A stretch of DNA of 64,000 nucleotides, taken from Phoronis australis. Its lineage: Eukaryota > Animalia > Phoronida. The number at the start of each line of letters is the position of its first letter. Positions within the stretch are counted from its first letter, which is position 1. Shown piece by piece: positions 13,301-60,300 of this stretch. Below the pieces are notes generated by a model. That model ran no database searches. It saw nothing but the letters and a program-made list of their open reading frames with translations, and was not told the DNA's origin. The translations under genes and the position numbers were made by a program. The stretch spans positions 1,141,126-1,205,125 of the forward strand of contig NMRA01000046.1 in the NCBI GenBank assembly GCA_002633005.1, read 5' to 3'.

Positions 13301-13631
13301 TATGCGCATGGAGCGAGTGTCCTCGATGCACCTAAGCTCATCAAGTAGTGAGTTCATAGCTTGAGAAATTTCAGTCTTGATGGAGGCAAGGGACTTTTTT
13401 GCGCAACATATCGTTGGGGTGTCATCGGGGTCGTCGGTCAGACCACGCAGTGGAGCAGCGGTTGTCTTTTTTAGCCAACTAACGCTGTCGACAAGAAATG
13501 GCGCAAAGTGAGGCTCCAAGGAAAGGATGTATAATAAATTCTGCCTCCAGCTATCAAATGAAGTAATGGTCTCATTTTTAGTGAGCGGCCACTGTTTTGG
13601 AGCTCGGGTTGTAGCCATGTCACTGCCACCA

Positions 13632-13754
13632 CGCCAGATAAACTAGAAAAAGTGTTGTAAGTTTAACAAGTTTAATTCGCAGCCGACAACACAACGAGGT
13701 CGAACCGGAAAGGCTCTCCCCAAACACAGTCGTACGAATAACAATGCAATGGCG
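13632..13754 (-). repeat. 5' LTR of the inner Gypsy element
   Basis: Direct repeat of 10275-10396, followed on the minus strand by PBS-like TGGTGGCAGTG and then the gag ATG. Confidence 0.85.
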
Positions 13755-24300: not shown

Positions 24301-27300
24301 ATACACATTAGCTCTTTCATCAAATCTTTAAAGGTTTCACGGTTTCGTAAAATAAATTCATGTAGTGAAGAGTTGTGGATGGATATTTTGACTCAAAATA
24401 ACTTTTTTAATACCCATCGTAACTACTTGTGCTTTGGCACAACATTTTATGAGATCTGGTCCAAAATATTTCAAATTTGTTCTGGAAAGAGATATTCTCT
24501 TACATTAAAGAATTTTTGAGTAAATTTCCGGTAAAAAGAGAAAATATTATATATGAACCTTTGTGGTACAATTCTAATATTTTGGCAGGTAAAAGACATT
24601 TATACGTATTATAGAAGGTGGTATGAGAAAAATATTGTATTTATTTATGACTTTTTAGACTCTAATGGGACGTTTATGAATTATGAAACTTTCTGTAACG
24701 TACATGATTTTTCTCCACCCTTCACTGAATACCTTGGTCTTAGGAGTATATTACGACCATATCTAAAAGATAGTAAAGGTCACGTCTTTCAAGTTACTTT
24801 ACCTAATTTTCCTCATGTATTCTCTAACACCCTATTTTGCCAAAAGCCAAATAAATTTATCTATGATACTTTAGTCTATCAGCTATACAGAAAACCAAAA
24901 TTTGAGTTAAAATGGGAGATGGTGTTGAATTTGCAATTATCTGAAGAATGGTGGAGAAAAACCTACTGTTGCTCTGTAGACTTCACATCTGATACAAAAC
25001 TAAAATGGTTTCAAATTAGATTGACCCACAGAATTTTAAGTACAAACACTTTTCTCCATAAAGTTGGAGTTACTAACTCGCAATTGTGCACCTTTTGTAA
25101 AAAGGAACCAGAGGACTTAATTCATCTCTACTGGTCATGTCATGTTGTGTGTTCCTTTTGGTCGGCATTATTTCGATGGATCGACCAAAAATTAAATATA
25201 ACCTTAAATCCTGCCATCATCGATATCCTTTTTGGTAAGCATTCTTAATCAAAAGTAATAAATCTAGTATTGATATTGGGTAAATATCATATATATCATC
25301 GTAGGTTAGAAAAACGCTTGCCCTGTATTGATCATCTCAAGGCAGAGATATATGAATATTTCAAAATTGAAAAATACATTTTTGCCAAAAATTGTGAACT
25401 TTTGGAATTTCATAAGAGATGGTCTCCTATGGTTCTTTTGTTTCATTGACTGGGGTTACAACTAAGATTTAGGCTCCCGGAGTGAATGAGTGTATGAATG
25501 TGTATATTCCCTTTAAATTTAGTATATGTTTCACGCTACTTATGGATGAATAAATGTTCAAAAAAAAGTCAGTTCTTCCCAAGCCACAGAAATCACTTCT
25601 TATCTCAGTAAGAAAAATATTGACGACTGTGAAGCATATTTATAATGGAAAGCTGTTTAAACGAGAAGTTAGTTTTTTGAGTAGGGTTTGATTAAAGTTT
25701 GACACAATGAGCCAAAGAAAAAGCTGAACAGAAAAACAATAAGAGGTGTTAGTACACTGAGTAGAACCTACACTTTTGGCAGCTGAAATGTCCCAAAATG
25801 GTTTGGCGCGAACACTGAATGGTTCTTTAGTTTTGTCAAGATTCCCTTTGATGATCTTCTCGTGCCTCGGACCAATGATTTCTTTGTTTATACAAGTAAG
25901 CCTTGTACCAAAGTCAGTTCCACCTACGTCAATTCCCTGTAAATAAATGCATGCTTGTAGTTTATTAAACAACAGAGACATAGTAAAAAGCAATACCCAC
26001 GGACTTAAGCTGTTTGCTTGAATAGCATAAATATAGATTATTACATGTTCTCAGTTGCTATACCCCTTATGTAGAGCCCTCGTAGATTTTGGAGAATTAT
26101 TGCCCTCGGAGCGTTAATTCATACCACATACTGAAGAGAAATACTGCAATGAATCGATCTACCTTTCTCGACTTGCGTCGGCTTTGTAACTACTTTCTAT
26201 GTCAGAGGTCCGGGGTCGGTGGTCGTGACCTTTTAAAATAGCCGAGCTATTTTTGTCAAATAATGCTTTTACTCAAAACCAATCGAAATTTTAAACATAA
26301 CGGAAAGAAAGTGAATCTATAAAACTATTCTAGCTTACTACACATTTTATCACGCTAAGCTTTGCCCAAGAAAGTATCGTCTGCTAAAGTAGGTTACCAC
26401 TGGTAACTGAGTATAATGCTCGAGTCGAAGGATCTCGACGACACGATACCCGCATTCAAATTGAAGATCGGTAATTTACAAGTGAGAGAAAATGAGAGAT
26501 AAATTTCACTGAATTAAAATATCTTTCTTATAGAAATTATGTATCTTATTTTTCATAGCGTATAAATGTAGATACAATGCGCTTTGTTGAACATGCAATT
26601 GTAGCGCACGCTCATTTAAGTATTCTATTTTCACATTCGATGACGTCAGCCCATGAGTGAGGCAGTGGTAAAGTCGACGACTCGAAACTCTTGTGGACCG
26701 GGTTCAAAACCAGCCTCGATTCCCGCCAAAATGTTATTTCACAAGTGAGATAACTAAATGGGTTATTACATGGTTGTATTGGCCATTAGAGGCAGATTTT
26801 GTGGCATAATGATCAATTATACATCATATCTACATCTGGATTAAAACACAAAAAGTTCAAGAAGAATTTGGCAGGATTTGCAACAAGTACTTCTGAAGTA
26901 TTACAATCCATCTGAAAAACAAGAGCACCATGGAACGTTGAAATTCACCCATGACAGTAGTGCAAATGTCATGCTTCAAAGAGTTTTAAACATAAGATTC
27001 CAAATTAGATGGAGCAGAATACGTGAACCCATCCAACAAGACTAATAGGGAGCGCTGAAATGCACCTACGGCAGCACCACCAATGATGTACTTCTATAGG
27101 CATGTTTCTTTATCATAAATATGGTTATTACATGGCGCAAAATATGTTAAACCTGTCCGAAATTTGGAAGGTAGCATTGTCATCTGCTGCCATCTCCATA
27201 GGAGCACATCAAAGTACTTGAACCCATCTGAAAATCAACATCAGGTGTGGCTTTCATATCAGGAACACAACTACCAATTTTCGTAATGATCCAGCGGTAT

Positions 27301-30300
27301 GGCAGCTTGAGTGACGAACATTAAAAACACATGCAATAACTCTCAAATGGCCAGCAGCTGGCGCAGAAAACATCAAATCTATCTGAAATTGGGCAGGCGT
27401 TGTTGTCTACTATTTGTCAAATTTCATGATAATACATTAATAACCTCTGAAGACACAGAGGCAAGCATAAAAACTTTTTGCCACTAAATGGCAGTGGCAT
27501 TCTGATCAGTCGACATTCATTGCCGCTTCTTATCGCCTCCATAGGAACACATCTTTCAAATTTCACAAAGCTCCCTCAAAGGGTTAAGGAGATTCGACCA
27601 CAAAGGCAAAAAACAAAACTGAAAAGGGGGGGGGGTTTGGCGACACAGTATTCAGACCGGTTGGAAATCAACGTCAGTCATGGCCTTCCCATCAGGTATA
27701 CATCTGTAAATTTTCATAATGATCCTTTGAGCAGTTTTTTGCCAGACAGAGAGGCGGATGCCAGAAAATGGACGCAAAAATAGCCCCAATGTTGTGTAAA
27801 CTAAATCAAATCCATCCAAAAATGAAATAGTATTGTCACCTCTTCAATAAAAGCCTATTTGCCAAATATCCAGAAAATCCATGAAGGAACTCTGAAGATA
27901 CAGAGGCAAATGTAAAAAACTAAAATTTCCACCAGGGTGCCCAGTGCCAATTGGTTCAGTCTGTAATTCAATGTCATTTGTCATCAGCTTCATAGAAGCA
28001 CACCTACGAAATTCCAAGAAGATCCTGCAAGTAGTTATGGAGATACAACAGTAACCATTGAACAGCTGTACGCTCAGACAGAGATGACGACGTTCATTGG
28101 ATCTGCCTGTAAGTTGTCGTTGTCTGTAGCTAGCTTCAAATAAATACATTTACTAAATTCAATAAAGATCCTGCAGTAGGTTTAGGAGATACAGCTATGG
28201 GCGCAATGCCAAACAAAACAAACAAAACAAAACAACTACAGTACCCCTGGGAGGCGCCACAGTATTCATAATCAACCGTCTTCTTTACACTGAGAACACG
28301 TGCCAATTTTCAAAATCATCCTTAGAATGATTTGGTTGATAGAGGGGTGGACACCAAAAACAGACTCAAAAACAGCAAAAATGGCCACTAGGTGGCGCAA
28401 AATACATTGATTCCATCCGAAAACGGGACGATAGCGTCATCTTACCAATAGATGCGTATATTCCAAATTTTATAAAAATCCGTTGAGGACTTTTGAAGAT
28501 GCAGAGGTAAATGTAAAAAATTAAAATTGCCACTAGGGAGTACACCGGTAGTCAGATCCGTTCGAAAGTCGTCGTCGTTTGTTGTCAACATCATATACAC
28601 CTGCTAAATTTAGTAAAAATCTTGGAAACGGTTTAGAAGATACAGCTATGGGTCCAAAAAAAAAACAAATCTGCCACTAGGAGGCGCCACAATAGCCGAA
28701 CTCATCGGAAAATCATTGTCAGCCGTTTTCTTCATAGTAAGAATAATACATGACAATTTTCAAAATCATAAGAGCGATTTGGTTGACAGAGCAGTGGACG
28801 TCAAAAAATTCGAAAACAGTAAAAATGGCCACTAGGTAGCGCAAACTATGACAAATCCATCTGAAAACAGGATAATGTCAACTCACTAATAGATGCCTAT
28901 GTGCCAAATTTCATGAAAATCTGTTGAGAACCTCCGAAGATACAGAGGTGAAAGTAAAACACTAAAATTGCCACTAAGGGGCACACCTGTAGTCAGATAG
29001 GTCCGAAATTCATCATCATCCATCATCAGCTTCATAGGAACACGTGCCAAACTTCATCAAGATCCTGTGAGGGGAGATACAGCTGTGGATGCTGGACACC
29101 AGACGCCCAGACAGAGATGACAGCAATATGCACACACAAAGGTTCCAGATGTCACAGCACTAGAAATTCTTGCGAGCTAATGCTCATAATTAAGGTACCT
29201 AAACTACACGGTTAACAGACTCCTACACACGGTCACGGACGCATGAACACGACTCACGTACCTGTAAACACCGTTCACTGACTCACAAACACGGGAACGG
29301 ACTCACAACACGATCCATTTACCCAAATACACGGAACATGGACTCACATTCACGAAGAAACACGGTTTATGGACAAAATGTAGATGTCAGCTGACCCAGG
29401 AAGCCGACGAGTCCGTGACCCGTGTTTATGGCATGCTTTATTGGAGTGAACCGTGTTTGGCGGTCCGTTAACCCGTGTTTCTTCGTGAATGTGAGTACGT
29501 GTCCCGTGTATTTGGGTGAATGGACCGTGTTTTGTGAGTCCGTTCCCATGTTTGTGAGTCAGTGAATGGTGTTTGCAAGTACGTGAGTCGTGTTCATGCG
29601 TCTGTGACCGTGTTTAAGAGTCCGGTGACCATGTAGTTTAGGTACCTTGATAATGCAAACTTCATAAACCTCAAAATCTTAAAGGAGAATACCACCCAAT
29701 TTAATTAGTCTTTTTTACCGTCTTAATCGGTCTATATCCACATCACTTTTTTATACGGTCGATCTCCGAGAGGTGTCGCGTTAACCTGTGACAAAGGTGA
29801 GAAACGACGCAGCGACGTCAGTGGTTCGTTTGCAGAGTGAATGCCGCTATATTGCGGTGCATCATTCCTGCGTGTCCGAACTATGAAGCTGTGAAAAAAG
29901 CGGGTATATTGTTTTTTCGTTTCCTCAAGAGCCCGAAATGCTTAGGAAGTGGTTCGCGGTAGTGAAGAATAAAAGGTACGCTGTTAATAGCAAGCATGAG
30001 GCCGTGAAACATCTCTGTGTCTGTGGTCGGCTTTTCGTCAACAATGAATTCTCTGATGAATTCCGGCTTACCAAAGAACTATCCATACGTTCCGTTGCCT
30101 GTGAATGTTCACGACGCCTCTCTAGTATTTCTTGATCAGTGTATTCTGGTTCAAACTGATAACCTGTGAAACCTAACGATCCGACCCGTGCAGTCTTCAT
30201 CGGATGGGCTCTTGAATAAGTCGGGATTGGTGCTGGGCGAGTTGCCATGTAGACGTTTATTATTCTGCGTTCTGTTTCAAAATGAATTATTCTCATCCTA

Positions 30301-33300
30301 ACCAATGCTTATATAAAACTGAAACGAAGTCTGTCTCATTATATACAATTTGTAATGCCTTTGCAGTATTCGTGAGTGCAAATGTTGAGAAGCCAGCAAT
30401 GAATAAACCACTGCGTTACCGGCTCTTGATGCCGGTAATAAAGGTAAATGACCGGGCACCGAGGCCATGTGAGCGCATGCTAATTCAGTGTTTGCTGACA
30501 GAAAGCTGTTGAGAAACAATTACTCGATTTTATATGCTATGGTCACATGTAAGGGGAATCTTTATTTAGAAATACAAACATTATTCAAATCATTGTTACT
30601 GTACAGCCTTTGCCTTGACGGTCTGTGGAAGGGAACTCGACTTCGTGTCCCCTGACAAGTAAGTAGATTTTCAGTTTCGTGGCTAATTCACATATAAGTA
30701 ATTACGTGCACATTATTTCTTTGGCTCACTATTATAGTCTTTTCGTAACTAGAGGTTTAGTTTCCAACTCAAGCTGGTTTATGTTCGTGCCAGTCCCGGT
30801 GGCCGCAAGGGGCCTGATCGGGTTCCGAGCCACTGGCCGGGATAACAAGCGTTTTGTGTGTTTAGAACTCAAAAAATCACAAGTTTGAATAACACAGATC
30901 TAAGTTCTCCTGTCTGTATTTCGCAGAAGAATACTTCGAATTTATCTCCAAACAGACCCCAAACTCCTGCTACGGACCTTGGTAACTTGGCCTGCCTAAC
31001 TTTGTAGGCTACGGTGTGTCCAAATACCAATAATTCCGTAACAGCAAAATAAAACAACACGTTTTTATAAGAACGGTGTATTTTTAAGGGTTTTACATCG
31101 AAGTTTGATGATTTATCAGTGTTAAACGATGAATTCAAGCAATAAGCTGACACCAGTAACCCGTGTTGTGAACTGCTGAACAGAGTGATTGTGAAACCAA
31201 CGACGTCATTTGATAATTTCAACACCTCCGTCCGCCGTCAGGTGTCAGGTAACGTAACCGAACGTGTCGTTATCGAGTAGACCTACTCGACCTAAATTGA
31301 TACAAAATAGGTTTTTGGGAGGCATTCTCCTTTAACTTAATCAAACAATTCACTGCTGGTAATTGCGAGCCTCCAACGGTCTTGAATATGTTCAGAGTTC
31401 TATTTTGAAGTGATTCAGTACTAGACAGCCTTGTCAGCACGCAACATGAAAAGTGCATATTGTAATAAAAAAGTATACTCACTTCAAACTTGATAATGTC
31501 GTACACAAGATACCTTGGCACAGGTTTACCATCGACTTTGTCTATTATCAACTCCTAAAACAAGAACAATGCAGATCAGTTCGACACTCGTTGCTGGTTG
31601 TCATCGGAATACATCTTTCAAATTTCACAAAAGCTCCTTCAAAGGGTTAAGGAGATTCAGCCGCAGATGCAAAGAAAAAACAAAATCGCCCAAAGTCAAC
31701 CGCAGAAACAAACATCTGCAAATTTTTATTATGAAGCTTTGAGCGGTGTGGCAGACAGACAGGTTGATACCAGAAAACAGACACAAAAATAACAAAAATG
31801 GCCAAAAGATGGCATAAAAATCCATCGTATTTGTCCAGAAATTGAAAGGTATCATCGCCTACTTATTAAAAACTAATCTGCCGAAATTGATGAAAATCCA
31901 TCTAAGAACTCCAAAGATACAGGAGACAAATGCAAAACATTAAAATTGCCAATAGGGGACACAGCGGTAGTCGGATCGGTCAGAAACTAGTCATCTGAGC
32001 TTTTCACGAAAAGTCTTGATTTTTGACAGTTGAGATCTCGGGCTCTGACACTAAAGCTAATAGACCAAGTAAACTTACTATTCTCTTAGGAAAAAACAAC
32101 ACCAATGAAACTTATGGCAGTCTTCATGGAAAACTGTGATTTTTTATGAAAGAATGTGGCACGTGATTGCTAACATTCGAGCAACACACATAATATGTAT
32201 CAACCAATAAATGTTTGTAACTCGAGATCAGCTAATTGTCAGATAATGTTTGTGGGTGTTCTAATTTGCTAGCCGATCCACTGGCGGGTTGCTTTTGATA
32301 TGAAATTGGTGATTTTAAGCACGTTAATTAGCTAACAATCTAAATCTACATTTCAAGATAATCAAGAACTCCCCAACACAAACTTCAACAGTGGAGGAAC
32401 AATATTAGAGATACATTACACTAATGTAACCTCACCCCATCAATGAGAGTATTCATAAGGTGAGCATTAAGATCCTTCTTACGAGGGAACGTTAAGAGTG
32501 GAACATGGAAGACAGAGTTGTCACGGTCAATCATAAAGATTTGTCTGGCACCATCAATCAACATCATATACCTGAAATGTACAACATGACATCCCGGGTT
32601 AAAGTTTATGAGTTGAACACTTACACCATCAGCCAATAGATGGTGCTAAGGCACAAAACAGCGACAAGAACGATGAACAAAAATGAACTCTAAAATTGGC
32701 GTAGTTATGCATCACAAATATTGACTTTTAACAGCTATAGTTACTGCATACCTATGACGTGAAATCTCAAAATTTTCTGACCAAAATAATAATAATTTAA
32801 CAAGAGCAATGCAGAGCGTTGAAATGCGCCCACAATTGCACCATATACGGTATCCTTCTAGGATTGTTTATTGGTACCATAAAGTGGCCAGTAGATGGCA
32901 TGTATGTAGTATGTTGTACTTTACAAAAGGGAAAGGCATGGTCATTGTCTCCTCAATAGGCTAGCGGCAAAATGTGAGTGATCTTCATAATACAAGCACA
33001 TCCTATACATCAGTTGCTTAAAGCACCACAGAAACATAGAATTAAAAACAAATTTACCAACATACGAGATTAGCAAAGCATTAGAATACCAGAAACAAAT
33101 TTCTGCTTGGAACTTTTCCTTCATAGTCACGAAGTAACACAAAGTATACACCTGAAGACCTATGAAAATACAGAGGTCAATGTAAAATTACTAAAATTGC
33201 CACTAGAGGCATACCGGTGGTCAGAATCATCCTAAAGTCGTCATCGTCCGTTGTCAACATCACATAAATACACTTGCTAAATTTAGTAAAGATCCTGCCA

Positions 33301-36300
33301 GCGGTTTGGGAGATACAGCCATGGGCGCAAAAAAAAACTACCACTAGGAGGCGCTAAAGTAATCACAGTCATGGGAAATTCAGCGTCAACCGTCCTCTTC
33401 ATAGTAAGAACATACATGCCAATTTTCACAATCATACTTATAGCGGTTTGGTTGATAGAGGGGTGGACGCCAAAAAACAGACTCAAAAACAGTAAAAATG
33501 GCCACTGGGTGTCGCAAACTAGCTCGAATCCATCCGAAAACGGGAGGATAGCGTCACCGCACTAATAGGAGCCTACATACCAAATTTCATGAAAATCCGT
33601 TAAGGACTTGTGAAGATACAGAGGTAAACTAAAAAAATAAAATTGCCACTAGGGGGCCCACTGGTAGGCGGATCCATCCAAAAGTCGTCATCGTCTGTTG
33701 TTAACATAATATAAATAAACTTANGGAGATACAGCCATAGGCGCAAAAAAAACTGCCACTAGGAGGCGCCATAGTAGTCAAAATCGTCGGAAAATCATCG
33801 GAAACCGTCCTCTACATAGTAAGCATATACATGCCAATTTTCACAATCATCCTTTGAGCGGTTTGGTTGATAGACGGGTGGACGCACAAAAACAGACTCA
33901 AAAACACTAAAAATGGCCACTAGGTGGTGCAAACTATGTCGAATCCACCTGAAAACTGGAGGATAGCGTCATCTCACTAATAGGTGCCTACATACCAAAT
34001 TTCACGAAAATCCGTTCAGGACTTTTGAAGATACAAAGGTAAGCGCAAAAACTTAAATTGCCACTAGGGGGCACACCGGTAGTTGGATCCGTCTGATAGT
34101 TCGCACATGCCGTCCCATTCATGAATGGAACATATGTGCCAAATTTCATGAACGTATGTCAAAGGGTTTTGGAGATAAAGCAGCGGACGCTGGACGCCGA
34201 ACGGACGCCGCCCGGACGGACGGAGATGACGGCATAATGCGTCCACATATAAATATGTGGGCGCATAAAAATGGTAACAGATTTATTTGAAGTCACTTAT
34301 CAATAAAAAAAATGGAAAAAGTAAAATTCCTCTAGTCTGCCATGTTCGTGTCCTAAATAGGTGAGATTCTACTGTAAATCATCTTGAAGCCAAATTGCCC
34401 AATGTACTGTGCGACAATTAAGTTGGAACTTCTAAATACAAATGTACTTCAGAAGTCAGTTTTCTTTTAATTTTGGAATTCTCAAAAAAATAATTTAAGA
34501 AGGTGGGTTCCAAATACTTGCAAATTTCCAGCATTGTGTAATATCTAGCATGGAAAGTAATAACGTAAGGGTACCGAACTATAAAACCAGTTTTATTCAC
34601 AGACTCCCAGTCAACGGTCTTAAACTTACTAAACTGCTCAACAGACCTACCTTTCCTCAAATTTCTCAACTAAACTTAAGGTTTACAAGAATTAACAACT
34701 CCATAAAATGGCTTGTAATGTACAGTAATCAAAAATAAAAATAGGATTTTTTAAATATATTTTAACAATGAAATGTGCTTTTGACTACCGGACAAATTAA
34801 CTAATACTATATTGGCAGTTATTTTTTAGCCAACTTGAAGACAGATTATCAGTACCCTTTTCAATCACAAAAATGGATTGTGTGAATGAGAATGATGCAG
34901 ACACATGACCCTGTGTTTCTCTGTCAAAATTGTCAGCTGTGACAGAAATCACCATTACCTCCATATGAGAAAATTTTACACCAAAATACTCACAAGAAAT
35001 TGCTCTGGGGCAAAAGTGGGAATTGAAATTGTGCGTGTAGATGTATTTAGCTCATAATACTTTGTAAACAAACATAACATGAAATAGCTGCAATATTAGG
35101 ACAGTTGGCAGCTAGCAGTACAAAGAGAAAAATGAATATTTAGTCACCATATACTTTTGTGTAAAGTAACTGGAGAACGACTATACTAAACATGAGTAAA
35201 ACACAATCAAAACTGATAGAATTTACTTTTACATGAGCAACGCATAGCGTTGAAATACACCTGTGACTGCAATGCAATCGGTGTGCTTCTAGGGGTGTTT
35301 TATAGAACCACAAAATAGCTATTAGGTGTGCTTCTAGGGGTGTTTTATAAAACCACAAAATAGCTATGGTGCAGAATACAGCAAATGTGTCGTCACCTCC
35401 TGAATACAAAGATATTTGCTAAATTTTATGATAGTCACTGATTACATAGGTGAAAGTGAAAAAAGCAAATTGCCATTAAGAGGTGAAGCAGTAGACCAAA
35501 CGGTCCCCGTTCCTTTGTTAAGTTAATAGGAACACTTGCAAATTTCCAAAATATCTCTTTGCAAGGGAGCTTACGACATACAGCCACAGATTTAAAAAAA
35601 AAACTCCCCACTAGAAGATGCCAAAGTAAACAAATTGTCAAAAAATCAACGTCAGCTGTGATCTCCTCATCTGGAACACATCTGTCAAAACTCTTTACGA
35701 TCCTATACGAAGTTTAGGCCATACAGCATGTGGATGCATAAAAACTTTGACAAACAAGTGATATTAAAAGTATTGTTCACAACAATTTTAAATTAAACAT
35801 GGAATAAAAAAGGTCAGTTTTGGCAATTGCTTTGTCTGGAATTTACCATAACAACAAATTTAAAATATGTCAAGTAACAACAGGTGTCCGAGTTGGCAAA
35901 GCACCACACATGAGATCCGGTCTGGACACTCTGTAACAGGATTTAATTTCAAGTTTTGTAAACAGCCAGCAGACTAGGTCAAGTCAGTATACTGCATCAA
36001 GATGGCTAAAGTTGAGCTGCTTCTGGTTATTGTCATGGTCTGTCCGCAATACACAAAGACACAAGTAAGTGGAAACATAGAGACCTAACCAATATTTAAA
36101 TACATAGATTGATAGATAGATGGATGGATGTAGCCAAATAGACAGAAACACCACACAGGCTGCTGGCACAATGAAGGCTAGGATACCAATTAGGCCATGG
36201 GAGTGGCTTTAGACTTGTATGAAAAGCCTCCATTGAAAGTCACTTATGGAACAACACTGCTAAAGCTAAAAAAGCATGAGAACTTAGAAAGTCACTTATG

Positions 36301-48300: not shown

Positions 48301-51300
48301 TCTTCAAAGAGTGTTATTTATATGTGAATATGCTGTTACAAACCAGTCCGTTAATTTTGCATAAGTAAGAATTATTAGTTTTTCACATCAACTATACTTA
48401 AGTCTGAAAAGATCTTAGTTGAACTGGGAATTGAACACAGAATTTTCTGCTAACCATGCGGACTTTCTACTCCACTGACCTCTCGGGACCGCAGGTCAAC
48501 TACAGAGTAAATTATACTATGTTTTTCTGGCTTTAAATGTCCTGTTTCACATAGGCACAGCCAATAACCTTGCTGCCAAACATTGACCAAAAATCATTTG
48601 TTTTTTGGGCAGATGTCGCCAACTGTAGCTAATTTCATAAAAATGAGAATTCTTATCCCATCAAGGAAATGCACTTTTTGCACACCAAGTGATTCCCTAC
48701 AATGCAGACGATACATCGACCTTTGCATCACTAACTGACCTAAATTCCAAAACCCAGGGCTTGGAATGACCAATGACAAAAAACGCGGAAACTTTGAAGG
48801 CCCAAATCATGCCCGATAACCAGCCTTGAAATGGTCAATGTGAACCTTTCCCCGACAAAAATCGGGAGGACTGCAAAAAAAAAAAAGTTGCCACCATCAG
48901 TAGCATGCATCTGCGTCCTTTTAGCTCGCCCGTCCACTCCCAACCCACACATTTTTGGCTGCAGAGCGGTAGTATTTGTCGCCGCGCTTAACAATAACAC
49001 GAGACGCCATTGAAAATCCCACCACGCTGTCCTAGTTGCCATGGCAATGTTGACAATTTACGTTCCTCCGAAACATAAAGAGCAACTTCCGCTTTTCGAG
49101 GTGAACGTCGTCTGCAACGCCGCGGTAAAAAAGAAATTTGTCGCGGAAATTTTATATCAAATCCGATTTTTTTTTTACGCGGAAATATTATAAAAAAAGC
49201 GGAAAGCACATTTGAAAAAAGAGGAAATCCGCGTTTCCGCGGAAAATTCCAAGCCCTGAAAACCATTCAAGATCTCTGCATTCATACTGTGGCTGAGCTG
49301 ATGTGGGCGCAGTGTATATGTTGATGTTTGATCTAGTTTAACTGACATGGCTTAGAAAAGTCCAATCATAAATAGTGACTATACACTTGGAGTGACGAAG
49401 TAGGACAGGTGCATGGCATGTGTTGAAATTGTGGGTAAATAGTTAAGAATGAATGTGGTGGTGTAATATTTCATGGGGGAAGGGACCTATTGTTTGGTAG
49501 ACAAAAAGCACATGGTAACAATGGAACCAAAACACTAAATTGCCATTAGAAGATGAACATGTGGGAGCTGCGCAGTGTTTTCTCATAAGCATTCCAATCA
49601 TTTTTTAATGACTTTGGATGGGCAGTATCCGAAATTCTATGCAACCGATAGGTTTTTGGTTCAAGTCAAGTGTCTCGCATAAGAAATAAGTGGTTTTTAT
49701 CTGATGAGATTTTATGACAGAAATTGACTACTTTATAGGCAAAGGAACTCGCCCATCAACAGTACCATCATAAATTGGTCAGCCCTCCTATTGTTTTGAA
49801 ATTGATTCCTTACGTAATCCCACTTATGTCTAGTTAAAGACATTTGTCATCTTGCCAGAAATTATCTAATAATCTGCCTTAAAAAGGGTATTTTAAACAA
49901 TTGTAAACATGGACGACTATGAAAAGAAGTAGAAAGCTATGGAAGATAACACCGAACTGTAGTTGAGGAAAGTCATCAGAGAAGTAAAACAAGAGCAACG
50001 CGGAGCTTTGAAATGCGCCCACGAATGCTTCGCTAACGTTGTGCTTCTAGGTGCGTTTATTTGGAACATAAAAATTTGTAACTGGATAGCACAAAATATG
50101 TCGAATCCATCTGAGAACTTGTATGTGTCATCAAAGCTATTTACCAAATTCCATAAAAATCTGTCAAGGAAAATAAAAAAATGAAATTGCCACTAAGAGG
50201 ATATAACCGCAAAAAACAACTGCCACAAAGAGGCACCGAAGTAAATAATGTTGTCAGAAAATCATCGTCAGACTTCCTCTTCCCATTAGGAACATAAATA
50301 CCAATTTCCACAACCATCCTTGAGAGTGGTTTGGTTGACAGAAAGGCAGACGTCAAATAACAAGACTCGAAAACAGTAAACATGGCCACAAGGTGGCGCA
50401 AAATATCTCGGATTTTACCAAAAACCGGATGATAGCGTCACCTCACTAATAGATGCCTAACTGCCAAATTTTATGAAAATCCATTGACGAACCTTTAAGA
50501 TACAGAGGTATATAAAAAATTAAAATTGCCACTAGGGGGGCACACTGGTAGCCCGATCCGTCTGAAAGTCGTCATCCTCTATAGTCAACTTCATATAAAT
50601 ACACCAGCAATAAAGATCCTGTAGAGCATTTAGGAGATACAGCCATGGGCGCAAAAACAAACAAAACTGCCACTAGGAGGCGCCATAGTATTCCAAGTCA
50701 TCGTAAAATCATCATCAGCCGCCCTATTCATAGTAAGAATATTTATGATCGACATATGTCCCGGATAATAGATAAATAATACGTGCGTCGCAAGCTCGTT
50801 ACCAGAGATGAAAGGAGACTGATGTAGGCGATATAAGGTCATTTATTATGACTAGTAAATTACAATAAAATGAATACAGGTAAATAAGTATAATAGGTAA
50901 TCTCTGGTAAGATGGGCAATAAAAAGCGCCACAGAGATGTTGTAAGACAGCTCATGCCCATCGCCAACTTTCAAAATCATACCTAGAGCGGTACGAGAGA
51001 ATGACGAAAACTGGGAGGAAGAGGGTGGGAAAATTGAATGAGTTTTTGACGTACGACAATGTGGCCGGAACAAAGTGAATTGAAAGCTAGGTTACAATAA
51101 CAAAGAAAAACGCCCCTAAAGACACGTGACAATCATCAGCCTATAAGAGCCAAGAGCTGACCAAACTCGAGGCACGTGATAACAACAGACCAATGCGAAG
51201 GCTGGAAAAACGTCGTGTAGTCCTACACAAGGGAATAATGGAATAGACCAAGATGAGGGGGAAAAGGAGTAAGGCGAGTCCATATGCTCACATAAATATA

Positions 51301-54300
51301 TTTAACGAGTGAAATACCATTTATGGTCGACATATGTCCCGGATAATAGATAAATGATACGTGCGTCGCAAGCTCGTTACCAGAGATGAAAGGAGACCGA
51401 TGTAGGCGATATAAGGTCATTTATTATGACTAGTAAATTACAATAAAATGAATACAGGTAAATAAGTATAATAGGTAATCTCTGGTAAGATGTGCAATAA
51501 AAAGCGCCACAGAGATGTTGTAAGACAGCTCATGCCCATCGCCAACTTTCAAAATCATACCTAGAGCGGTTTGGTTGATAGAACTGCTGACGCCAAAAAA
51601 GACTTGAAAACAGTAAAAAAGGCCACTAGGTGGCGCAAAGTACCCTGAATCTGTCCGAAAATGGGAGGATGGCATCATCTCACTAATAGATGTCTAACTG
51701 ACAAATTTTATGAAAATCCGTTGAGTACCTCCAAATCTAGAGGTAAGCGTAAAAAATTAAAACTGCCACTAGGGTGCACAGCAGTAGTCGGAGAGGTCCG
51801 AAATTTGTTGTCATCTGTTGTCACCTTCATGGCAACACATCTGCCAAATCGTATTAAGATCCAGTAAAAGGTTTAGGAGATACAGCCATGCGCGCAAAAA
51901 CAAACAAAAATGCTTATAGGCGCCACAGTTGTCGAAGTCGTCGGAAAATCATCATCAGTCGCCCTCTTCACAGTTAGACCATATATGCTAATTTTCAAAA
52001 TCATTCCTAGAGCGGATTGGTTGATAGAACGGCGGACGCCAAAAAACGGACTTGAAAACAGTAAAAATGGCCACTAGGTGGCGCAAAGTACCTTGAATCC
52101 GTCCCAAAACGAGAGGATGTCATCATCTCACTAATAGATGCTTAACTTTCAAATTTTATGAAAATCCCTTGAGGATACAGCGTAAAAAAATAAAATTGCC
52201 ACTAGGGGGCACACCGGTAGTCGAAGAGATCTGAAATTCGTTATCGTCCAATGTCAGCTTCACAGGAACACATCTGCCAAATCTGATCAAGGTCCTGTGA
52301 GGGGTTTAAGAGATACAGCTGCGGACGCCGGACAAACAGAGATGGCGGCAATATGCGACCACATCTAAAAATGTGGGCGCATAAAAAAGGAACTGGAGTC
52401 CGTGAAAATAGAAAATCAGTGCTCCGATGACCAAGATAAGTTATGTACAGCAGTATTCCCAAAGAATTAAATTTGTACTTACAGTGTGGAAGAAAGTACG
52501 GATGAAAATTGTAATCTGACCGTTCAGAAGGTATTCCAGGAAAAAATGAATGCAACTATTGGCCCTGGTAACAGATCAAACCCACATAGATGGAAAATCC
52601 AGAGGTGAAAATGTAAGATCAACCACCAGTACAAACAGCAGCAGTTCCACCAACCACCAGCAAAAGCCACTACCATATTCTATTGAAGTTCATCAGGCAT
52701 TTTTATCAGCAAGTAGTATTTTAACAGAAGAAAAATCTAAAGAACACTCAGATTTTCATATCAGAAGATCTTACTGTGGAAAATTACTATCTCATGAGTT
52801 CAACGTGAGTGTGTGTGTTGCTTAAGACCTACATTTCATAAATCCATAGATCTCTAGAATATTCCGATAGTTAACATCAAATTTACATCCTTGAACATCT
52901 GAGGTATAAATTCAGTAACAAAATGTTTATAACTTTTTATGAAAAGTGGTTGAAAGATATCATGTCACATATTTACAATAAACATACAACACCACAGAGT
53001 CTATTATAAGATGTGAATATGAACAAGGTGATACCATTATTACAAGCCATCGGAAAAACTATAGCAAAGAACTGTTACTTTACTGGACACTCTTGGATTT
53101 TCAACAGATTTCATCCATAAATGACAGTCAGGAACTGTAATTTTGTTAATTTCAGAACTTTACAAGAGAATGTTGTTTTGCTCAATGTATTATTCCCAAA
53201 TGAAACCAAAAAATAACTTGATTTTATAGAAAATTTTTTAAATGTACCTTTTGAAGTTAAGTCAGCTTGGTAAGCTAATTCTTATTCTGCCATACTCAAC
53301 CCATCAAGAAAGATATGTGTGGAAATCTTAGTCACTGGTACTACACCACACAAACACAAAACCATAAAACCAAAACACTACATCACGTAAAAACTGTGGA
53401 ACACTCACCTTGTTCCATCTGCCTTCCAACTGCACTTGTATGGCTTCTCAGTGAGGAACTTCAAGTTTTTCAAGTCCATTGACACAGGCTGACACCCTGG
53501 AAAGCCACCTCTGGAATGACAAGGGTTGTAGGTTACGCTAATAAATAGCACGTCATGAGGTTAGACACTAAAGGGAGCAAGGTTCTTCCATTAACTCGGG
53601 AAAATTTATATTTTCTCAAAGTAGAAAGTTGGGAAATTTTTGACCTTCCACTAATCTGCCATTAATTGGTTAATGAGACCGACCATTTTTATTAAAATTT
53701 AGTAAAAAATGTGGAAACAATGGTGTCAATCTCATGATCAAACTTTAGTTAACATAAATGTGCAAGATGAATTTTCTAAAACATCATTTTGTTTTCATTT
53801 ATTGCAAAACCATACAAGTCCTATTTTTGGAAGGCGTTCATAAAGAAGTGGAGCAGTTTACCAAAAATTCCTAAAAACATTTTGCATGTATCCAGAAGTT
53901 TCACATGAATCCAATTAGCTATTTCCGAGATGCAATGTTCTGAATTTAGCCAAATTTGGAATTTTTCTAGGGTCCTATTATGAATGAATTCCACAATGCC
54001 ATCCTATTGTCAAGCTCCACTACTATGTCAAACCCAGGTAGTGCAGATTTTAGCAGAGAGAAGTGGTGCTTCAAACCAGCCTCTTAATAAGAGAGCATAT
54101 TAGCACTTTGTGTTCAGTAGGTATTTGTTCAGTTTCCTAGTGTTTAAACAACTTGGAACATGTCATTAATCAATTTTCATTAACTGGTAAGATCTAGAGC
54201 CACTATTTATACCCTATCCCAACACATGATAAAAACTGACATAAGTTTGAAAACATACGGCTATAAATGCAGTTGTCACTAAGAAATTAGCACACCTATC

Positions 54301-57300: not shown

Positions 57301-60300
57301 CATGCACAAAAAAGTTGATTAGTGAAATATGCTGTTTTTAAGATACATTTGAAAAAAGAAGCCACTCACTCACTGTTTATTATCATGTTGTGAATATCAA
57401 CATGTCCGGGTATTCCGTTGACGTTAGTAAGCAGACGAACGCTGGAAACTACAACGCTAGATGTCGCGGGACCACGCAGACAAGGAAATACGATCGTTCA
57501 TGACTTTAGGGCACTCATGAGTTTAGGACCTCTGACGGTATTAAAATTTCTAACTGATTACTCAGTGCACTGTCAGCTAACGGATCAAAAGCAGGTGACA
57601 GAAACACCACTTAAAGAAAGTACCTTTTTATTTATCTCTTTCCTCCGCCGTTTCCTCTCAGGCTCACCACTCTCCTCTGATTGACCAACCTGACCATCAT
57701 CATCATCATCTGCTTCTTCCTCTTCTACAGAACAGACAAAAATGTGCCAATTAATAATGACATGACACCATAATGACAAAATACAAACCACATCTCTTGA
57801 AGCATCCATTCTTCATGTGGCAGCTACCTTAGCTATTTTTGAACAAGGCACACTGTCAAACATTGACAAAGGAAAACAGGATTAAATGTAGTTCAACAAG
57901 AATTTTGAAAAAAATGGCTAAAAACACCTAACGCCAAACCCATTCTCAGAATGTTACAAAATCTTGATGAGAAAGGCTATTACAGGCAACTTTGGCCAAA
58001 GCATGCATTGAATCTGACACTGTACATGGGGTTCTTACTCTGGTTGTAACAACATTAAGTCATTTCCCGCTCAGTTTCAGCCTGTTGTGCCAAAATTCCT
58101 GAGAACGTCATTGATAACTACCACGGTGTAACTCTGTGAAATTATGACATGCAACCAACCCATCACATATCAATTAGAAGAAAAAATTGTTGGTCAAACA
58201 ATCTTGGATATTCTTGAAGATGTGGAAGACAAAAAAGTGGCAGAAAATTTACATGTAAATATCAAGAGCATGCACTACATTCAAGAAATACGAAGCTAGT
58301 GGCATACAGTTGCAGTTATTGACATGCTGACTTTATAAAATATATGAAAGAACATTTAAAATAGAAACGCTACATTTATCACACAGCTGCCAGAAACACT
58401 TCCATGGATTTAGCACCAGATAGAAGTCACAGTCATGACTACAAATCAACTGTATTGCTGTGAATGAAAACATACCTAGACACCACTCAGGTAATGGGGG
58501 CGCTAATGGTGTGTCATCCCTGTCGCCGTACCTGGAGAACAACTCTGTCAGGTAATCCTGTTTGTATATACCAGGTGGTCGAGTCTGGGCAAATACATTC
58601 ACTGCAGCTTCAATACTGGAATCAGAGAACAGTTTTTAATAGATGAGCTCACACAAAGATGAAGTATAAATAGTGCAAAGAATGTGGACACCAGCTACCT
58701 TAAAACAATATGCCATGGAGATACCTGATCACTGCATGTGGTTCTAAGCTAGGTTTTCAATAACTGAACATCATATAGTCTGTCTCAGGTAGCCAGCAAA
58801 ATTACTCGGGATTGTCAAAATTACTCACTGCATCAAAACTTGGATATTCCAATTAAAGCATCACACGTATTCACTAACAAGAGCAACGCATAGCCTTGAA
58901 ATGCGCCCACGAATGCACCGCAAACGGTATGCTTCTAGAGGTGTTTATTTGGAACATAAAAATGGCCACTAGATGGTGCATAATTCATCAAATCCATCCG
59001 GAAACTGGTATGTGTCATCAAAGATATTTACCAAATGTTATAAAAATCTGTCAGGGAGCTTCTGAGAAACCGAGGAAAACGAAAAAAAAAATGAAATTGC
59101 TAATAGGAGGCTACAAGCGCAAAAAACATAACATACCCTAAGAGGCATCACAGCAGATGAAATCATCAGAAAACCATCATCAGACTTCTTCTTCACATTA
59201 GAAACAAACATGCCAATATACACAACCATCCTTAGAGTGGTTTGGTTGACAGAGGGGCAGACGCCAAATAACAAGACTCCAAAACAGTAAAAATGGCCAC
59301 TAGGTGGTACAAAATATGAGTCAAAATGAAAGCCGGAGGATATTGACAATTCAATAATGGATGCCTATTTTGCAAAAATTTATGAAAATCCGTTGAGGTC
59401 CTTTGAAGATAGAGGTAAAATTAAAAAAACTAAAGTTGTTTGTTTGACAGAGGGAAGATGCTACTAGACTAAAAAATAGTAAAAATGGCCACGACGTGGC
59501 GCAAAATGCCTCAAATTCAACCGAAAACCGGATTATACAGAGGTAAACGTAAAAAAATAAAATTGCCACTAGGGGGCACACTGGTAGGCGGATCCGTCCA
59601 AAAGTCGTCATCGTCTGTTGTTAACATAATATAAATACACTTATTAAATTTCGTAAAGATCCTGCGAACGGTTTAGGAGATACAGCCATAGGCGCAAAAA
59701 AAAAACAAAACTGCCACTAGGAGGAGCCACAGTAGTCCAAATCGTCTGAAAATCATTGTCAGCTGTCCACTTTATAGTAAGCACATACACGCCAATTTTC
59801 ACAATCATCCTTTGAGCGGTTTGGTTGATAGAGGGGTGGACGCACCAAAACAGACTCAAAAACACTAAAAATGGCCACTAGGTGGCGCAAACTATGTCAA
59901 ATCCATCTACAAACGGGAGGATAGCGTCATCTCACTAATAGGTGCCTACATACCAAATTTCATGAAAATCCGTTCAGGACTTTTGAAGATACAAAGGTAA
60001 GCGTAAAAAACTAAAATTGCCACTAGGGGGCACACCGGAAGTCAGATCCGTCCGAAAGTTCGTACATGCCGTCCCATTCATGAATGGAACATATGTGCCA
60101 AATTTCATGAACGTATGTCAAAGGGTTTTGGAGATAAAGCAGCGGACGCCAGACGGACGCCGCCCGGACGGACGAACGGACGGAGATGACGGCATAATGT
60201 GTCCACATATAAATACGTGGGCGCGTAAATATGGGGGCGCATGAAAAACTGTATTTTCCCATGCATCACTGCTGCCATACAGCACGAGTGGATATATTCA

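What the first reader, a model, noticed from the sequence alone, without database searches (positions are those of the whole stretch)
26918..60249. Rolling-circle-type elements carrying phased, co-oriented arrays of CTCF-like motifs
Four HINE-like copies (26918-29140, 32799-34271, 49988-52388, 58876-60249) contain ~145-160-bp internal repeats in a three-monomer higher-order unit (~445 bp). The best-kept part of each monomer is GCCACTAG(G/A)(T/G/A)GGC(G/A)C, e.g. tggccactaggtggcgcaa at 28382 and 59872. This closely matches the established CTCF consensus TGGCCACCAGGGGGCGC. Examples start at 28385, 28530, 28674, 28829, 28971 and 59566, 59714, 59875, 60020. Over 20 instances occur, all in one orientation, and the arrays flank the nested CTHRC1-like gene on both sides. 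Inference: a mobile insulator or nucleosome-phasing cassette.
Basis: partly seen in the sequence, partly recalled or inferred. Interest (0 to 1): 0.75.

Follow-up and report, generated by a model that had tools for sequence, protein, structure and literature searches.

The report
Rolling-circle transposon spreading CTCF-motif arrays
A very abundant non-coding rolling-circle transposon of an unidentified animal carries tandem repeats of about 150 bases, each holding a near-perfect copy of the DNA site recognised by the genome-folding protein CTCF, so it likely scatters clusters of such docking sites through the genome; binding itself is untested.

Summary
The window has four copies and two fragments of one repeat family, all in one orientation. 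A relaxed motif, GCCACTAGGNGGCRC with up to 2 mismatches, occurs 26 times. All 26 are on the + strand and inside these pieces, 141-163 bases apart, in a three-monomer higher-order unit.

The elements meet the structural criteria of HINEs (non-autonomous Helentrons): subterminal inverted repeats, an adjacent short inverted repeat, a (GTCC)n-type microsatellite, a 3' palindrome and T-run ends. By HINE convention they lie on the minus strand.

Monomer type A reproduces the first 17 bases of a published CTCF 'super motif'. Type B reproduces 14 of 16 bases of a published CTCF reference site.

In DNA contigs of the same species the family reaches about 10^2 to 3.6x10^4 times single-copy depth. Only 1 of 30 motif positions is polymorphic, against 29 of 161 other positions (p=0.03). 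RNA reads cover it with about 40:1 strand bias.

Old copies lose the motif along with the rest, so any selection likely acts on source elements. Not tested: whether the species has CTCF (taxon unresolved), occupancy, and insulation. The insulator or nucleosome-phasing reading therefore stays open.

The parts
26918..29140 (-). HINE copy 1, with degenerate termini. It holds 13 monomer bodies at 27215-29090; the left ones are strongly diverged.
   Evidence: Self-BLAST. End alignments. Body-only profile hits. Motifs with up to 2 mismatches start at 28384, 28529, 28673, 28828 and 28970 on the + strand.
31540..31995 (-). Fragment of the same family with three diverged monomer bodies.
   Evidence: BLAST 31741-31995 against 50324-50576 at 71%. 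Profile hits at 31572, 31705 and 31825. One motif with 2 mismatches at 31948.
32799..34271 (-). HINE copy 2. It holds 7 monomer bodies at 33218-34189 and a single N at 33724 inside the array.
   Evidence: Motifs at 33340, 33501, 33645, 33755, 33916 and 34060 on the + strand.
32824..32834 (.). Subterminal inverted repeat of copy 2 (ATGCGCCCACA). Its partner is at 34256-34266.
   Evidence: the repeat finder pair I6: 11 nt, 100% complementary.
32807..32821 (.). Terminal palindrome of copy 2 (CAATGC-AGA-GCGTTG, one mismatch). It ends 8 bases from the element end, which is the 3' end in HINE orientation.
   Evidence: Read. The palindrome is perfect (CAACGC-ATA-GCGTTG) in the fragment at 35231.
34183..34223 (-). 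Microsatellite-like (GGAC/GGACG)n stretch, which reads (GTCC)n on the element strand. It lies between the array and the left-flank hairpin.
   Evidence: Sequence. The same class of microsatellite (GTCY/GTCC) is listed for Cg_HINE in Table S2 of PMC7492417. TRF did not call it.
34237..34266 (.). Short inverted repeat plus subTIR of copy 2 (ATGCGTCCACATAT / ATATGTGGGCGCAT). This is the 5' end in HINE orientation and is followed by an A-run (a T-run on the element strand).
   Evidence: the repeat finder pair I3: 14 nt, 93% complementary, 2 nt apart.
35231..35727 (-). Fragment consisting of the terminal module plus one monomer body.
   Evidence: BLAST 35231-35328 against 58877-58975 at 76.8%. Alignment. 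Profile hit at 35634.
49988..52390 (-). HINE copy 3. Its arrays are at 50099-50780 and 51541-52327. They are interrupted by 50741-51570, which is bounded by two 252-base direct repeats.
   Evidence: SubTIR pair 50006-50022 / 52373-52389. Motifs at 50222, 50385, 50669, 51622, 51765, 52070 and 52198 on the + strand.
58876..60249 (-). HINE copy 4, with monomer bodies at 58987-60148.
   Evidence: SubTIR pair 58903-58914 / 60213-60224. Summed depth in DNA contigs jumps within the bin 58855-58925 and falls back to single-copy level after the bin 60204-60274. Hundreds of different loose ends begin at 58876. Motifs at 58965, 59296, 59488, 59565, 59713, 59874 and 60019 on the + strand.
59872..59888 (+). 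Type A motif TGGCCACTAGGTGGCGC. It equals the first 17 of the 19 bases of a published CTCF 'super motif'.
   Evidence: Sequence compared with bioRxiv 10.64898/2026.09.16.752217. The invariant run 59867-59885 among genomic copies covers it.
60019..60033 (+). Type B motif GCCACTAGGGGGCAC. Its CCACTAGGGGGCAC matches the first 14 of the 16 bases of the non-CpG CTCF reference site of PMC5694663.
   Evidence: The invariant run 60012-60035 covers it.
59713..59727 (+). Type C motif GCCACTAGGAGGAGC. The genomic majority has C at 59725, which gives GGCGC.
   Evidence: Place 59725 A>C holds 1,038,348 of 1,307,912 summed depth in X1.
38293..47462 (+). Context: CTHRC1-like gene lying between copies 2 and 3. 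Recognised exons are 38293-38673, about 45939-46157 and 47271-47462.
   Evidence: Pfam Collagen E=6.5e-18; CTHRC1_C E=6.2e-15 and E=4e-15. Named relatives are CTHRC1-like proteins.

Best explanation
These are four copies and two fragments, all co-oriented, of one very abundant non-autonomous Helentron-type (HINE) rolling-circle transposon whose internal 141-163-base tandem monomers each carry, on the same strand, a copy of the CTCF core consensus that varies less than the rest of the monomer, so the element likely spreads phased clusters of binding sites for the host's CTCF (predicted, not shown).

Shown:
- The HINE layout.
- The three-monomer higher-order unit.
- The identity of the motif to published CTCF sites.
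- The very high abundance of the family.
- The lower variability of the motif among genomic copies.
- Strongly one-stranded RNA from the family.

Inferred:
- The motif is kept by selection among the source elements that keep transposing, not at each inserted copy, because old monomers lose it together with the rest.
- A CTCF orthologue would bind a subset of accessible sites. This could keep arrays open or shielded from silencing, and perhaps help their one-stranded transcription.
- Most inserted arrays, including those around the CTHRC1-like gene, are probably neutral by-products for the host.
- Co-orientation of motifs within an array is a by-product of tandem duplication.
For: HINE layout:
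- SubTIR pairs of 11-17 nt at both ends of copies 2, 3 and 4.
- A short inverted repeat adjacent to the subTIR (pair I3 of copy 2).
- A (GTCC)n-type microsatellite and a 6-bp-stem palindrome ending 8 bases from the other end, with T-run boundaries.
- These match the criteria read in PMC4067079 and PMC7492417.

Motif:
- 26 of 26 hits lie on the + strand and inside the elements.
- Type A equals TGGCCACTAGGTGGCGC of the 'super motif' TGGCCACTAGGTGGCGCCA.
- Type B shares CCACTAGGGGGCAC with the reference site CCACTAGGGGGCACTA, which mouse CTCF ZF1-9 binds.
- The two positions that differ between types A and B (T/G and G/A) are the positions at which these published sites differ from each other.

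Conservation:
- Between monomer types, body identity is 0.47-0.52 but motif identity is 0.67-0.79. This uses 26 of the 27 monomers chosen by body score; 27951 was left unassigned.
- Among genomic copies, 1 of 30 motif positions against 29 of 161 other positions carries an alternative letter at 10% or more (one-sided Fisher p=0.029).
- The two longest invariant runs are the two motifs, and the one variable motif position is a CpG C>T.
- DNA depth peaks over the motifs, at 2.1-2.7 million against 0.8-1.6 million in the body between them.

Abundance: summed depth is 3.7x10^3 to 1.5x10^6 inside the element, against 41-56 in the unique flanks of run X1.

RNA: 11,485 of 12.75 million records read were laid on 191 bases, with first-mate strand ratios of about 34-48 to 1.

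Literature:
- The CTCF motif is shared across bilaterians, and orthologues are reported in molluscs and annelids.
- Invertebrate orthologues favour a motif with a 3' terminal cytosine. All three types end in C. Mapping that cytosine onto this motif is my inference, because the figure was not visible.
Against: - No genome is held and the taxon is unresolved. The only named hits to a retroelement RT are cnidarian. CTHRC1 exon relatives at 57% identity or less come from coral, sponge, brachiopod, annelid, hemichordate, amphioxus and vertebrates. A Mollusca hint scores only 0.77. CTCF arose in the bilaterian ancestor, so a cnidarian or sponge host would lack it.
- No occupancy, accessibility or Hi-C data could be examined.
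- Of 42 monomers picked without regard to the motif, only 20 keep it with up to 2 mismatches and 27 with up to 4. It is degenerate in the old monomers, so there is no sign of selection at inserted copies.
- Over all 42 monomers another box (CCAAATTTCAT) is at least as well kept.
- Type C has A at the variable position, which none of the cited sites covers.
- The type A motif is also a small palindrome.
- The genomic conservation test is modest (p=0.03). It rests on contigs of one sample and one RNA run.
- Inference: sites 141-163 bases apart leave too little room for CTCF at every site plus a full nucleosome per monomer.
- Inference: 10^4-10^5 sites would exceed the roughly 23,000 motifs predicted in lancelet, so most could not be functional.
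Confidence: 0.5

Rival explanations
1. The conserved block serves the transposon itself. It could be a recognition or processing site for the Helentron Rep/helicase/endonuclease, a signal for array growth during rolling-circle copying, or an internal promoter element for the one-stranded transcripts. On this reading the likeness to the CTCF site is a coincidence.
For: - The pattern looks like selection on source elements: the motif is kept between diverged monomer types but lost in old copies.
- A motif copy also sits about 90 bases from the element terminus in copies 2, 3 and 4, so the array looks grown from the terminal module.
- The type A motif is a 5-bp-stem palindrome that appears in the centroid fold.
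- The conserved block extends 6-7 bases upstream of the CTCF core into an A-run.
- RNA is one-stranded.
- Oyster HINE monomers also share conserved boxes of unknown role.
Against: - A 17-base identity to an optimal CTCF site is very unlikely by chance.
- Types B and C break the palindrome at exactly the position that varies between types.
- No monomer folds better than its shuffles (z from -0.11 to +1.06 in 6 folds).
- The motif is unlike the element's own terminal palindrome or subTIR.
- Oyster Cg_HINE arrays do not share it: GCCACTAG occurs twice in 3.4 million characters of supplement.
Confidence: 0.25
2. There is no function. The block is a hitch-hiking remnant that looks conserved because of recent amplification, gene conversion within arrays and subfamily structure. 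The CTCF match is chance.
For: - The motif decays with the rest in old monomers.
- CpG-type changes are seen in the motif: 59886 C>T, and GGTGC and GGTAC variants.
- Over all 42 monomers the motif ranks only 17 of 122 windows.
- The conservation test is p=0.03 from one sample.
Against: - The three monomer types are only 47-52% alike in the body yet 67-79% alike in the motif.
- The two longest invariant runs among genomic copies coincide with the two motifs tested.
- The block is identical to published high-affinity CTCF sites over 14-17 bases.
Confidence: 0.12
3. The arrays are host-used insulator or nucleosome-phasing cassettes that bracket and shield the CTHRC1-like gene.
For: - Arrays lie on both sides of the gene.
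- The monomer length is near nucleosome size.
- There are precedents for transposon-borne insulators. The gypsy Su(Hw) array is recalled from memory. Helitron minisatellites acting as barriers in C. elegans come from the abstract read.
Against: - The family's depth is about 10^2 to 3.6x10^4 times single copy, so flanking copies are expected by chance.
- Both flanks have the same motif orientation.
- Copy 1 and both fragments are decayed.
- There is no locus-level constraint.
- Inference: the spacing is too tight for CTCF plus a nucleosome in every monomer.
- No chromatin data were available.
Confidence: 0.08

Closest known systems
HINEs: non-autonomous Helentrons such as Drosophila DINE-1, mite HINE-Mo and oyster Cg_HINE (PMC4067079, passages read; PMC7492417, passages and supplement 1 read)
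   Same: - SubTIRs of 11-17 nt near both ends.
- A short inverted repeat beside the 5' subTIR.
- A GTCC-type microsatellite.
- A central array of satellite-like monomers. Oyster monomers are 138-181 bases; these are 141-163.
- A small palindrome near the 3' end.
- T-run boundaries and very high copy number.
   Different: - The subTIR, palindrome and monomer sequences differ from all 11 Cg_HINE families in Table S2.
- The CTCF-type motif is not a feature of the oyster arrays.
- The array here is a three-monomer higher-order repeat.
- The 3' subTIR lies about 25-35 bases from the end, against 38-60 in the mite.
Retrotransposon-borne CTCF site expansions in mammals, such as SINE B2 (recalled from memory: Bourque 2008, Schmidt 2012; not read here)
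   Same: A high-copy mobile element whose own sequence contains a consensus CTCF site and so multiplies such sites.
   Different: - That case is a retrotransposon with one site per element in mammals, with binding shown by ChIP.
- This case is a rolling-circle DNA element with 3-13 phased sites per copy, in an unidentified and probably invertebrate animal, with binding untested.
gypsy insulator of Drosophila, a cluster of 12 Su(Hw) sites inside a retrotransposon (recalled from memory; not read here)
   Same: A mobile element carrying a tandem cluster of sites for an architectural zinc-finger protein.
   Different: The protein, motif, element class and spacing all differ. Enhancer-blocking is proven for gypsy and untested here.
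CTCF-binding macrosatellites such as DXZ4 and FIRRE (recalled from memory; not read here)
   Same: Tandem arrays in which each monomer holds a CTCF site in one orientation.
   Different: Those have kilobase monomers at single loci and are not mobile. This case has 150-base monomers dispersed by a transposon.
Helitron minisatellite-derived PATC barriers in C. elegans (bioRxiv 10.64898/2026.08.08.743475; abstract and outline read)
   Same: Tandem repeats carried by Helitron-type elements that act on chromatin state.
   Different: That barrier is DNA-mechanical (10-bp periodicity), works without a protein motif, and occurs in a species without CTCF. This case is a discrete protein-type motif once per 150 bases.

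Membership tests
HINE (non-autonomous Helentron) | Subterminal inverted repeats of about 11-15 bp near both termini | tested here: met
   Copy 2: 32824-32834 / 34256-34266, 11 nt, 100%. Copy 4: 58903-58914 / 60213-60224, 12 nt, 92%. Copy 3: 50006-50022 / 52373-52389, 17 nt, 82%. Copy 1 is degenerate.
HINE (non-autonomous Helentron) | Short inverted repeat complementary to the 5' subTIR a few bases away (DINE-1 / Cg_HINE type) | tested here: met
   34237-34250 / 34253-34266: 14 nt, 93% complementary, 2 nt apart. The same layout is seen in copies 3 and 4.
HINE (non-autonomous Helentron) | Microsatellite in the left flank | tested here: met
   (GGAC/GGACG)n stands at about 34183-34223 and 60142-60183, which reads (GTCC)n on the element strand. 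It is short and impure, and TRF did not report it.
HINE (non-autonomous Helentron) | Small palindrome 8-35 bp from the 3' terminus | tested here: met
   CAACGC-NNN-GCGTTG ends 8 bases from the terminus. It is perfect in the 35231 fragment and has one mismatch in copies 2, 3 and 4. It was read by eye and not folded separately.
HINE (non-autonomous Helentron) | Insertion into T-rich sequence, T runs at the boundaries, no target-site duplication | tested here: inconclusive
   T/A runs stand at both ends. Hundreds of different A/T-rich loose ends begin at 58876. No empty site could be examined, so absence of a duplication is not shown.
HINE (non-autonomous Helentron) | An autonomous Helentron partner (Rep/helicase/endonuclease) sharing the termini | not testable with these tools
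   No genome is held. The ORF list of the window and the 12 ORFs scanned against Pfam showed no Rep/helicase gene.
Functional CTCF binding site | Sequence match to the CTCF core motif | tested here: met
   17 of 17 bases of type A match the published 'super motif'. 14 of 16 bases of type B match the reference site of PMC5694663. No position-weight-matrix score could be computed, because no JASPAR matrix was on hand.
Functional CTCF binding site | The species encodes a CTCF orthologue | not testable with these tools
   No genome is held. The taxon is unresolved.
Functional CTCF binding site | Occupancy in vivo or binding in vitro | not testable with these tools
   The listed runs are one DNA sample, transcriptome runs and one small run of uncertain kind.
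Functional CTCF binding site | Motif evolves under more constraint than neighbouring sequence | tested here: met
   1 of 30 against 29 of 161 variable positions, p=0.029. Motif identity between types is 0.67-0.79 against 0.47-0.52 for the body. The motif is nevertheless lost in old copies, so the constraint is at family level and not at each locus.
Chromatin insulator / nucleosome-phasing element | Boundary, enhancer-blocking or phasing activity | not testable with these tools
   No Hi-C, MNase or ATAC data could be reached.
Cg170 / HindIII-type bivalve satellite family carried by Cg_HINE | Monomer sequence similarity | tested here: not met
   GCCACTAG occurs only 2 times and CTAGTGGC once in the C. 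gigas array tables. None of four 9-11-base words from these monomers occurs in the C. gigas satellitome supplement. Only word searches were done, not alignments.

The most novel reading that the evidence does not exclude
A rolling-circle DNA transposon has seeded on the order of 10^4-10^5 phased, consensus-grade CTCF sites through an invertebrate genome and is transcribed from one strand. It would then be the main source of that species' CTCF sites. It would also be the first case of a transposon-driven CTCF-site expansion outside vertebrates, arriving as ready-made multi-site arrays.
Probability: 0.3. Interest if true: 0.8.

Novelty: new variant of a known kind. Interest (0 to 1): 0.6.

Why it matters
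Transposon waves that multiply CTCF sites are held to have reshaped mammalian genome folding. Whether anything similar happened outside vertebrates is open. There, CTCF keeps its motif but works mostly near promoters and without orientation rules.

A HINE family with arrays of optimal sites gives a direct test system. One protein, one motif and thousands of insertions of different ages can be compared for binding, accessibility, transcription and boundary strength.

There is also a practical warning. Any motif scan for CTCF in this species would be swamped by this repeat.

My searches found no paper linking Helentron or HINE arrays with CTCF. In one search the listed HINE and satellite-DNA papers show zero occurrences of 'CTCF'. 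Subscription journals, and supplements I could not open, are not covered.

Tried and rejected
- Tandem Repeats Finder did not call the arrays. Self-BLAST and a profile were used instead.
- Rfam: no family in the window.
- Own genome: none is held, so a CTCF gene, an autonomous Helentron and empty sites could not be sought.
- Taxon:
  - The 630-aa ORF gave no word-based relatives and only a 0.77 Atlas lead to a mostly molluscan cluster.
  - The CTHRC1 exon gave no word-based hit. HMMER relatives reach 57% identity at most, across many phyla.
  - Among the 120 retroelement RT relatives listed, the only two named after an organism are cnidarian; a third carries just a generic JGI transposase label. 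The best ten clusters carry no names.
- Metagenome scan with a 19-base word from the monomer body: 108 loci, all matching only around the word itself, so chance hits. One marginal 86-base match in L021 was not followed.
- My recalled IUPAC consensus CCASYAGRKGGCRSY gave only one-mismatch hits and is found in no paper. I therefore relied on published sites instead.
- Hairpin reading of the motif: only type A forms the 5-bp stem, and none of the 6 monomer strands folds better than its shuffles.
- My first conservation counts used monomers anchored on the motif and are biased. They were replaced by a motif-blind set.
- Sequence words of the termini were found in no relevant paper. The single hit is a yeast primer.
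- Sequencing-run search: no RNA holder was listed by the index. The RNA run was laid anyway.
- The supplement of PMC11136912 could not be read.

Full report
**What is there**

The window is eukaryotic, and no genome is held for it. Self-BLAST shows four co-oriented copies of one repeat, at 26918-29140, 32799-34271, 49988-52390 and 58876-60249. They are 70-87% alike. Two further fragments lie at 31540-31995 and 35231-35727.

The quoted motif is real and far beyond chance:
- GCCACTAGRDGGCRC has 11 exact hits, with 0 expected.
- GCCACTAGGTGGCGC with up to 3 mismatches has 25 hits, with 0.37 expected.
- GCCACTAGGNGGCRC with up to 2 mismatches has 26 hits.

Every hit is on the + strand and inside the six pieces. 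Successive motifs are 141-163 bases apart.

Monomers fall into three types, A, B and C. Body identity is 0.63-0.78 at lag 3 and 0.44-0.56 at lags 1 and 2, so the three-monomer unit of about 450 bases is confirmed. Tandem Repeats Finder missed the arrays.

**What kind of element**

Alignments of the ends, the inverted-repeat scan and the printed ends show the layout. I describe it on the minus strand.
- A T-run.
- A subTIR, TTATGCGCCCACAT.
- A short inverted repeat two bases away.
- A (GTCC/GTCCG)n microsatellite.
- The monomer array.
- Then about 90 bases holding a partial monomer, the second subTIR (GTGGGCGCAT) and a 6-bp-stem palindrome that ends 8 bases from a terminal TT.

This is the architecture given for HINEs, the non-autonomous Helentrons, in PMC4067079. 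It also matches the oyster Cg_HINE families in PMC7492417. The sequences of the subTIR, palindrome and monomers differ from all 11 oyster families. The oyster arrays do not hold the motif.

By convention, therefore, the elements lie on the minus strand. The CTCF-forward motif is on the opposite strand.

**Abundance and edges**

Contigs of four DNA runs of one sample of the same species were laid on 58500-60600 at 80% likeness. In run X1 the unique flanks have summed depth 41-56. Inside the element it is 3.7x10^3 to 1.5x10^6.

The rise falls in the bin 58855-58925, and hundreds of different A/T-rich loose ends begin at 58876. The fall comes after the bin 60204-60274. The tool warns that this figure is not a copy number. 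I read it only as 'on the order of 10^4 copies'.

At 59725 the window's A is C in 79% of the summed depth. That restores GGCGC in the type C motif.

**Is the motif a CTCF site by sequence?**

Type A, TGGCCACTAGGTGGCGCaa, equals the first 17 of the 19 bases of a CTCF 'super motif' used in bioRxiv 10.64898/2026.09.16.752217 (passage read).

Type B, GCCACTAGGGGGCACac, holds the first 14 of the 16 bases of the non-CpG reference site CCACTAGGGGGCACTA. The CpG form CCACTAGGGGGCGCTA is called canonical. Mouse CTCF ZF1-9 was assayed on these sites in PMC5694663 (section read).

The two positions that separate types A and B, T/G and G/A, are the positions at which these published sites differ from each other. 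Type C has A at the first of these positions, which no site I read covers.

A preprint reports that fly, sea urchin and sea squirt CTCF depend on a 3' terminal cytosine (10.64898/2026.10.19.759930, passages read). All three types end in C. Mapping that cytosine onto this motif is my inference, because the figures are not held. I could not compute a matrix score.

**Is it better kept than the rest?**

My first counts used monomers anchored on the motif and are biased. I therefore built a profile from the monomer body only. It finds 42 monomers, all on the + strand. I aligned them with their upstream parts.
- 20 of 42 have the motif with up to 2 mismatches, and 27 of 42 with up to 4. The degenerate ones are the low-scoring, old monomers.
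- Over all 42, the motif window ranks 17 of 122 (0.70 against 0.63 for the body). A CCAAATTTCAT box ranks first.
- In the 27 monomers with body score of 50 bits or more, the motif window ranks 2 of 122 (0.83 against 0.68).
- Between types, the body is 47-52% identical and the motif 67-79%. This uses 26 of the 27 monomers; 27951 was left unassigned.

Across genomic copies I laid run X1 (DNA contigs) and run X5 (RNA reads) on 59855-60045. This gave a complete table of 30 positions with an alternative letter at 10% or more.
- 1 of 30 motif positions is variable, against 29 of 161 other positions (one-sided Fisher p=0.029).
- The one variable motif position is a CpG C>T.
- The two longest invariant runs, 60012-60035 and 59867-59885, are the two motifs with their upstream A-runs.
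- DNA depth peaks over the motifs.

The motif is therefore constrained at the level of the family. Individual old insertions lose it.

**Transcription**

In RNA run X5, 11,485 of 12.75 million records read lie on these 191 bases. First mates fall on the + strand 34-48 times as often as on the - strand. Copies scattered at random in genes would give about 1:1. The family is therefore likely transcribed from one of its own strands.

Which strand depends on the library protocol, which is not on record. This is one run, and no DNA-free control was possible.

**Alternatives**

A hairpin role is weak. Only type A forms the 5-bp stem, and none of the six monomer strands folds better than its shuffles.

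A role in the transposon's own copying or transcription remains possible. A motif copy also sits about 90 bases from the terminus, and the conserved block extends into the upstream A-run.

Pure chance is unlikely, given 14-17 bases of identity to published sites and the between-type conservation.

The insulator reading at this locus has nothing specific for it:
- The family is everywhere.
- Both flanks have the same motif orientation.
- Copy 1 and the fragments are decayed.
- By inference, 141-163-base spacing cannot hold CTCF at each site plus a full nucleosome per monomer.

**Host**

CTCF arose in the bilaterian ancestor. It is reported in molluscs and annelids and is missing in flatworms and some nematodes. 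I could not place the species:
- No relatives were found for a 630-aa ORF.
- CTHRC1 exon relatives reach 57% identity at most, and come from coral, sponge, brachiopod, annelid, hemichordate, amphioxus and vertebrates.
- The named relatives of a retroelement RT are cnidarian.
- A weak Atlas lead points to Mollusca.

The GTCC-microsatellite HINE layout is best known from bivalves. I take a bilaterian invertebrate as most likely, but this is not shown.

**Novelty**

HINEs with satellite-like arrays are known. Transposon-borne CTCF sites and transposon-borne insulator clusters are also known; I recall these from memory and did not read them here.

I found no paper joining Helentron or HINE arrays with CTCF. 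The nearest is the Helitron-minisatellite barrier of C. elegans, which needs no protein motif.

CTCF binding is likely but untested, and insulation is open.

Noticed in passing
window 59855-60045 (family-wide): RNA-seq reads of run X5 cover the monomers heavily: 11,485 of 12.75 million records read. The first-mate strand bias is about 34-48 to 1, which suggests transcription from one strand of the element family rather than read-through.
   Followed up: partly
window 59984: 343 RNA reads share one loose end before 59984, with 0.96 agreement. This looks like a single abundant transcript that joins unrelated sequence to part of a monomer.
   Followed up: no
window 50741-51570: The array of copy 3 is interrupted by a stretch bounded by two 252-base direct repeats, 50741-50992 and 51319-51570, that are 98.4% alike. 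Short inverted repeats TTACCAGAGAT/ATCTCTGGTAA lie inside. It may be a nested small element or a recent duplication.
   Followed up: no
window 33724: The only N of the window lies inside the array of copy 2. It is probably an assembly gap, so that array may be longer than shown.
   Followed up: no
window 4804-6696 (+): A 630-aa open frame without introns has one hydrophobic segment and a long helical repeat region. It has no Pfam family and no word-based relatives. There is only a 0.77 Atlas lead to a mostly molluscan unnamed cluster.
   Followed up: partly
window 8150-9409 (+), 10523-13642 (-), 14440-14970 (-), 23932-25248 (+), about 42086-44581 (+): Decayed retroelements. They include Gypsy-type RT/RNase H pieces and non-LTR RT and zf-RVT pieces. 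By reading of the ORF list, one non-LTR piece lies inside an intron of the CTHRC1-like gene.
   Followed up: partly
window 45178-45568, 46394-46562, 54871-55329: Three young tandem arrays unrelated to the HINE monomers: 77 bp x 5.1 at 97% matches, 39 bp x 4.3 at 96%, and 57 bp x 8.1 at 95%. The first two lie within the CTHRC1-like gene span.
   Followed up: no
window 26422-26810 / 39407-39795 and 48755-49258 / 56724-57245: Two other dispersed repeats, 92.8% and 84% alike. Both pairs have a member just upstream of a HINE copy.
   Followed up: no
monomer body, e.g. window 59945-59965: A second conserved box, (T/A)CCAAATTTCATGAAAATCC, is the best-kept window when all 42 monomers are counted. Its role is unknown.
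   Followed up: no
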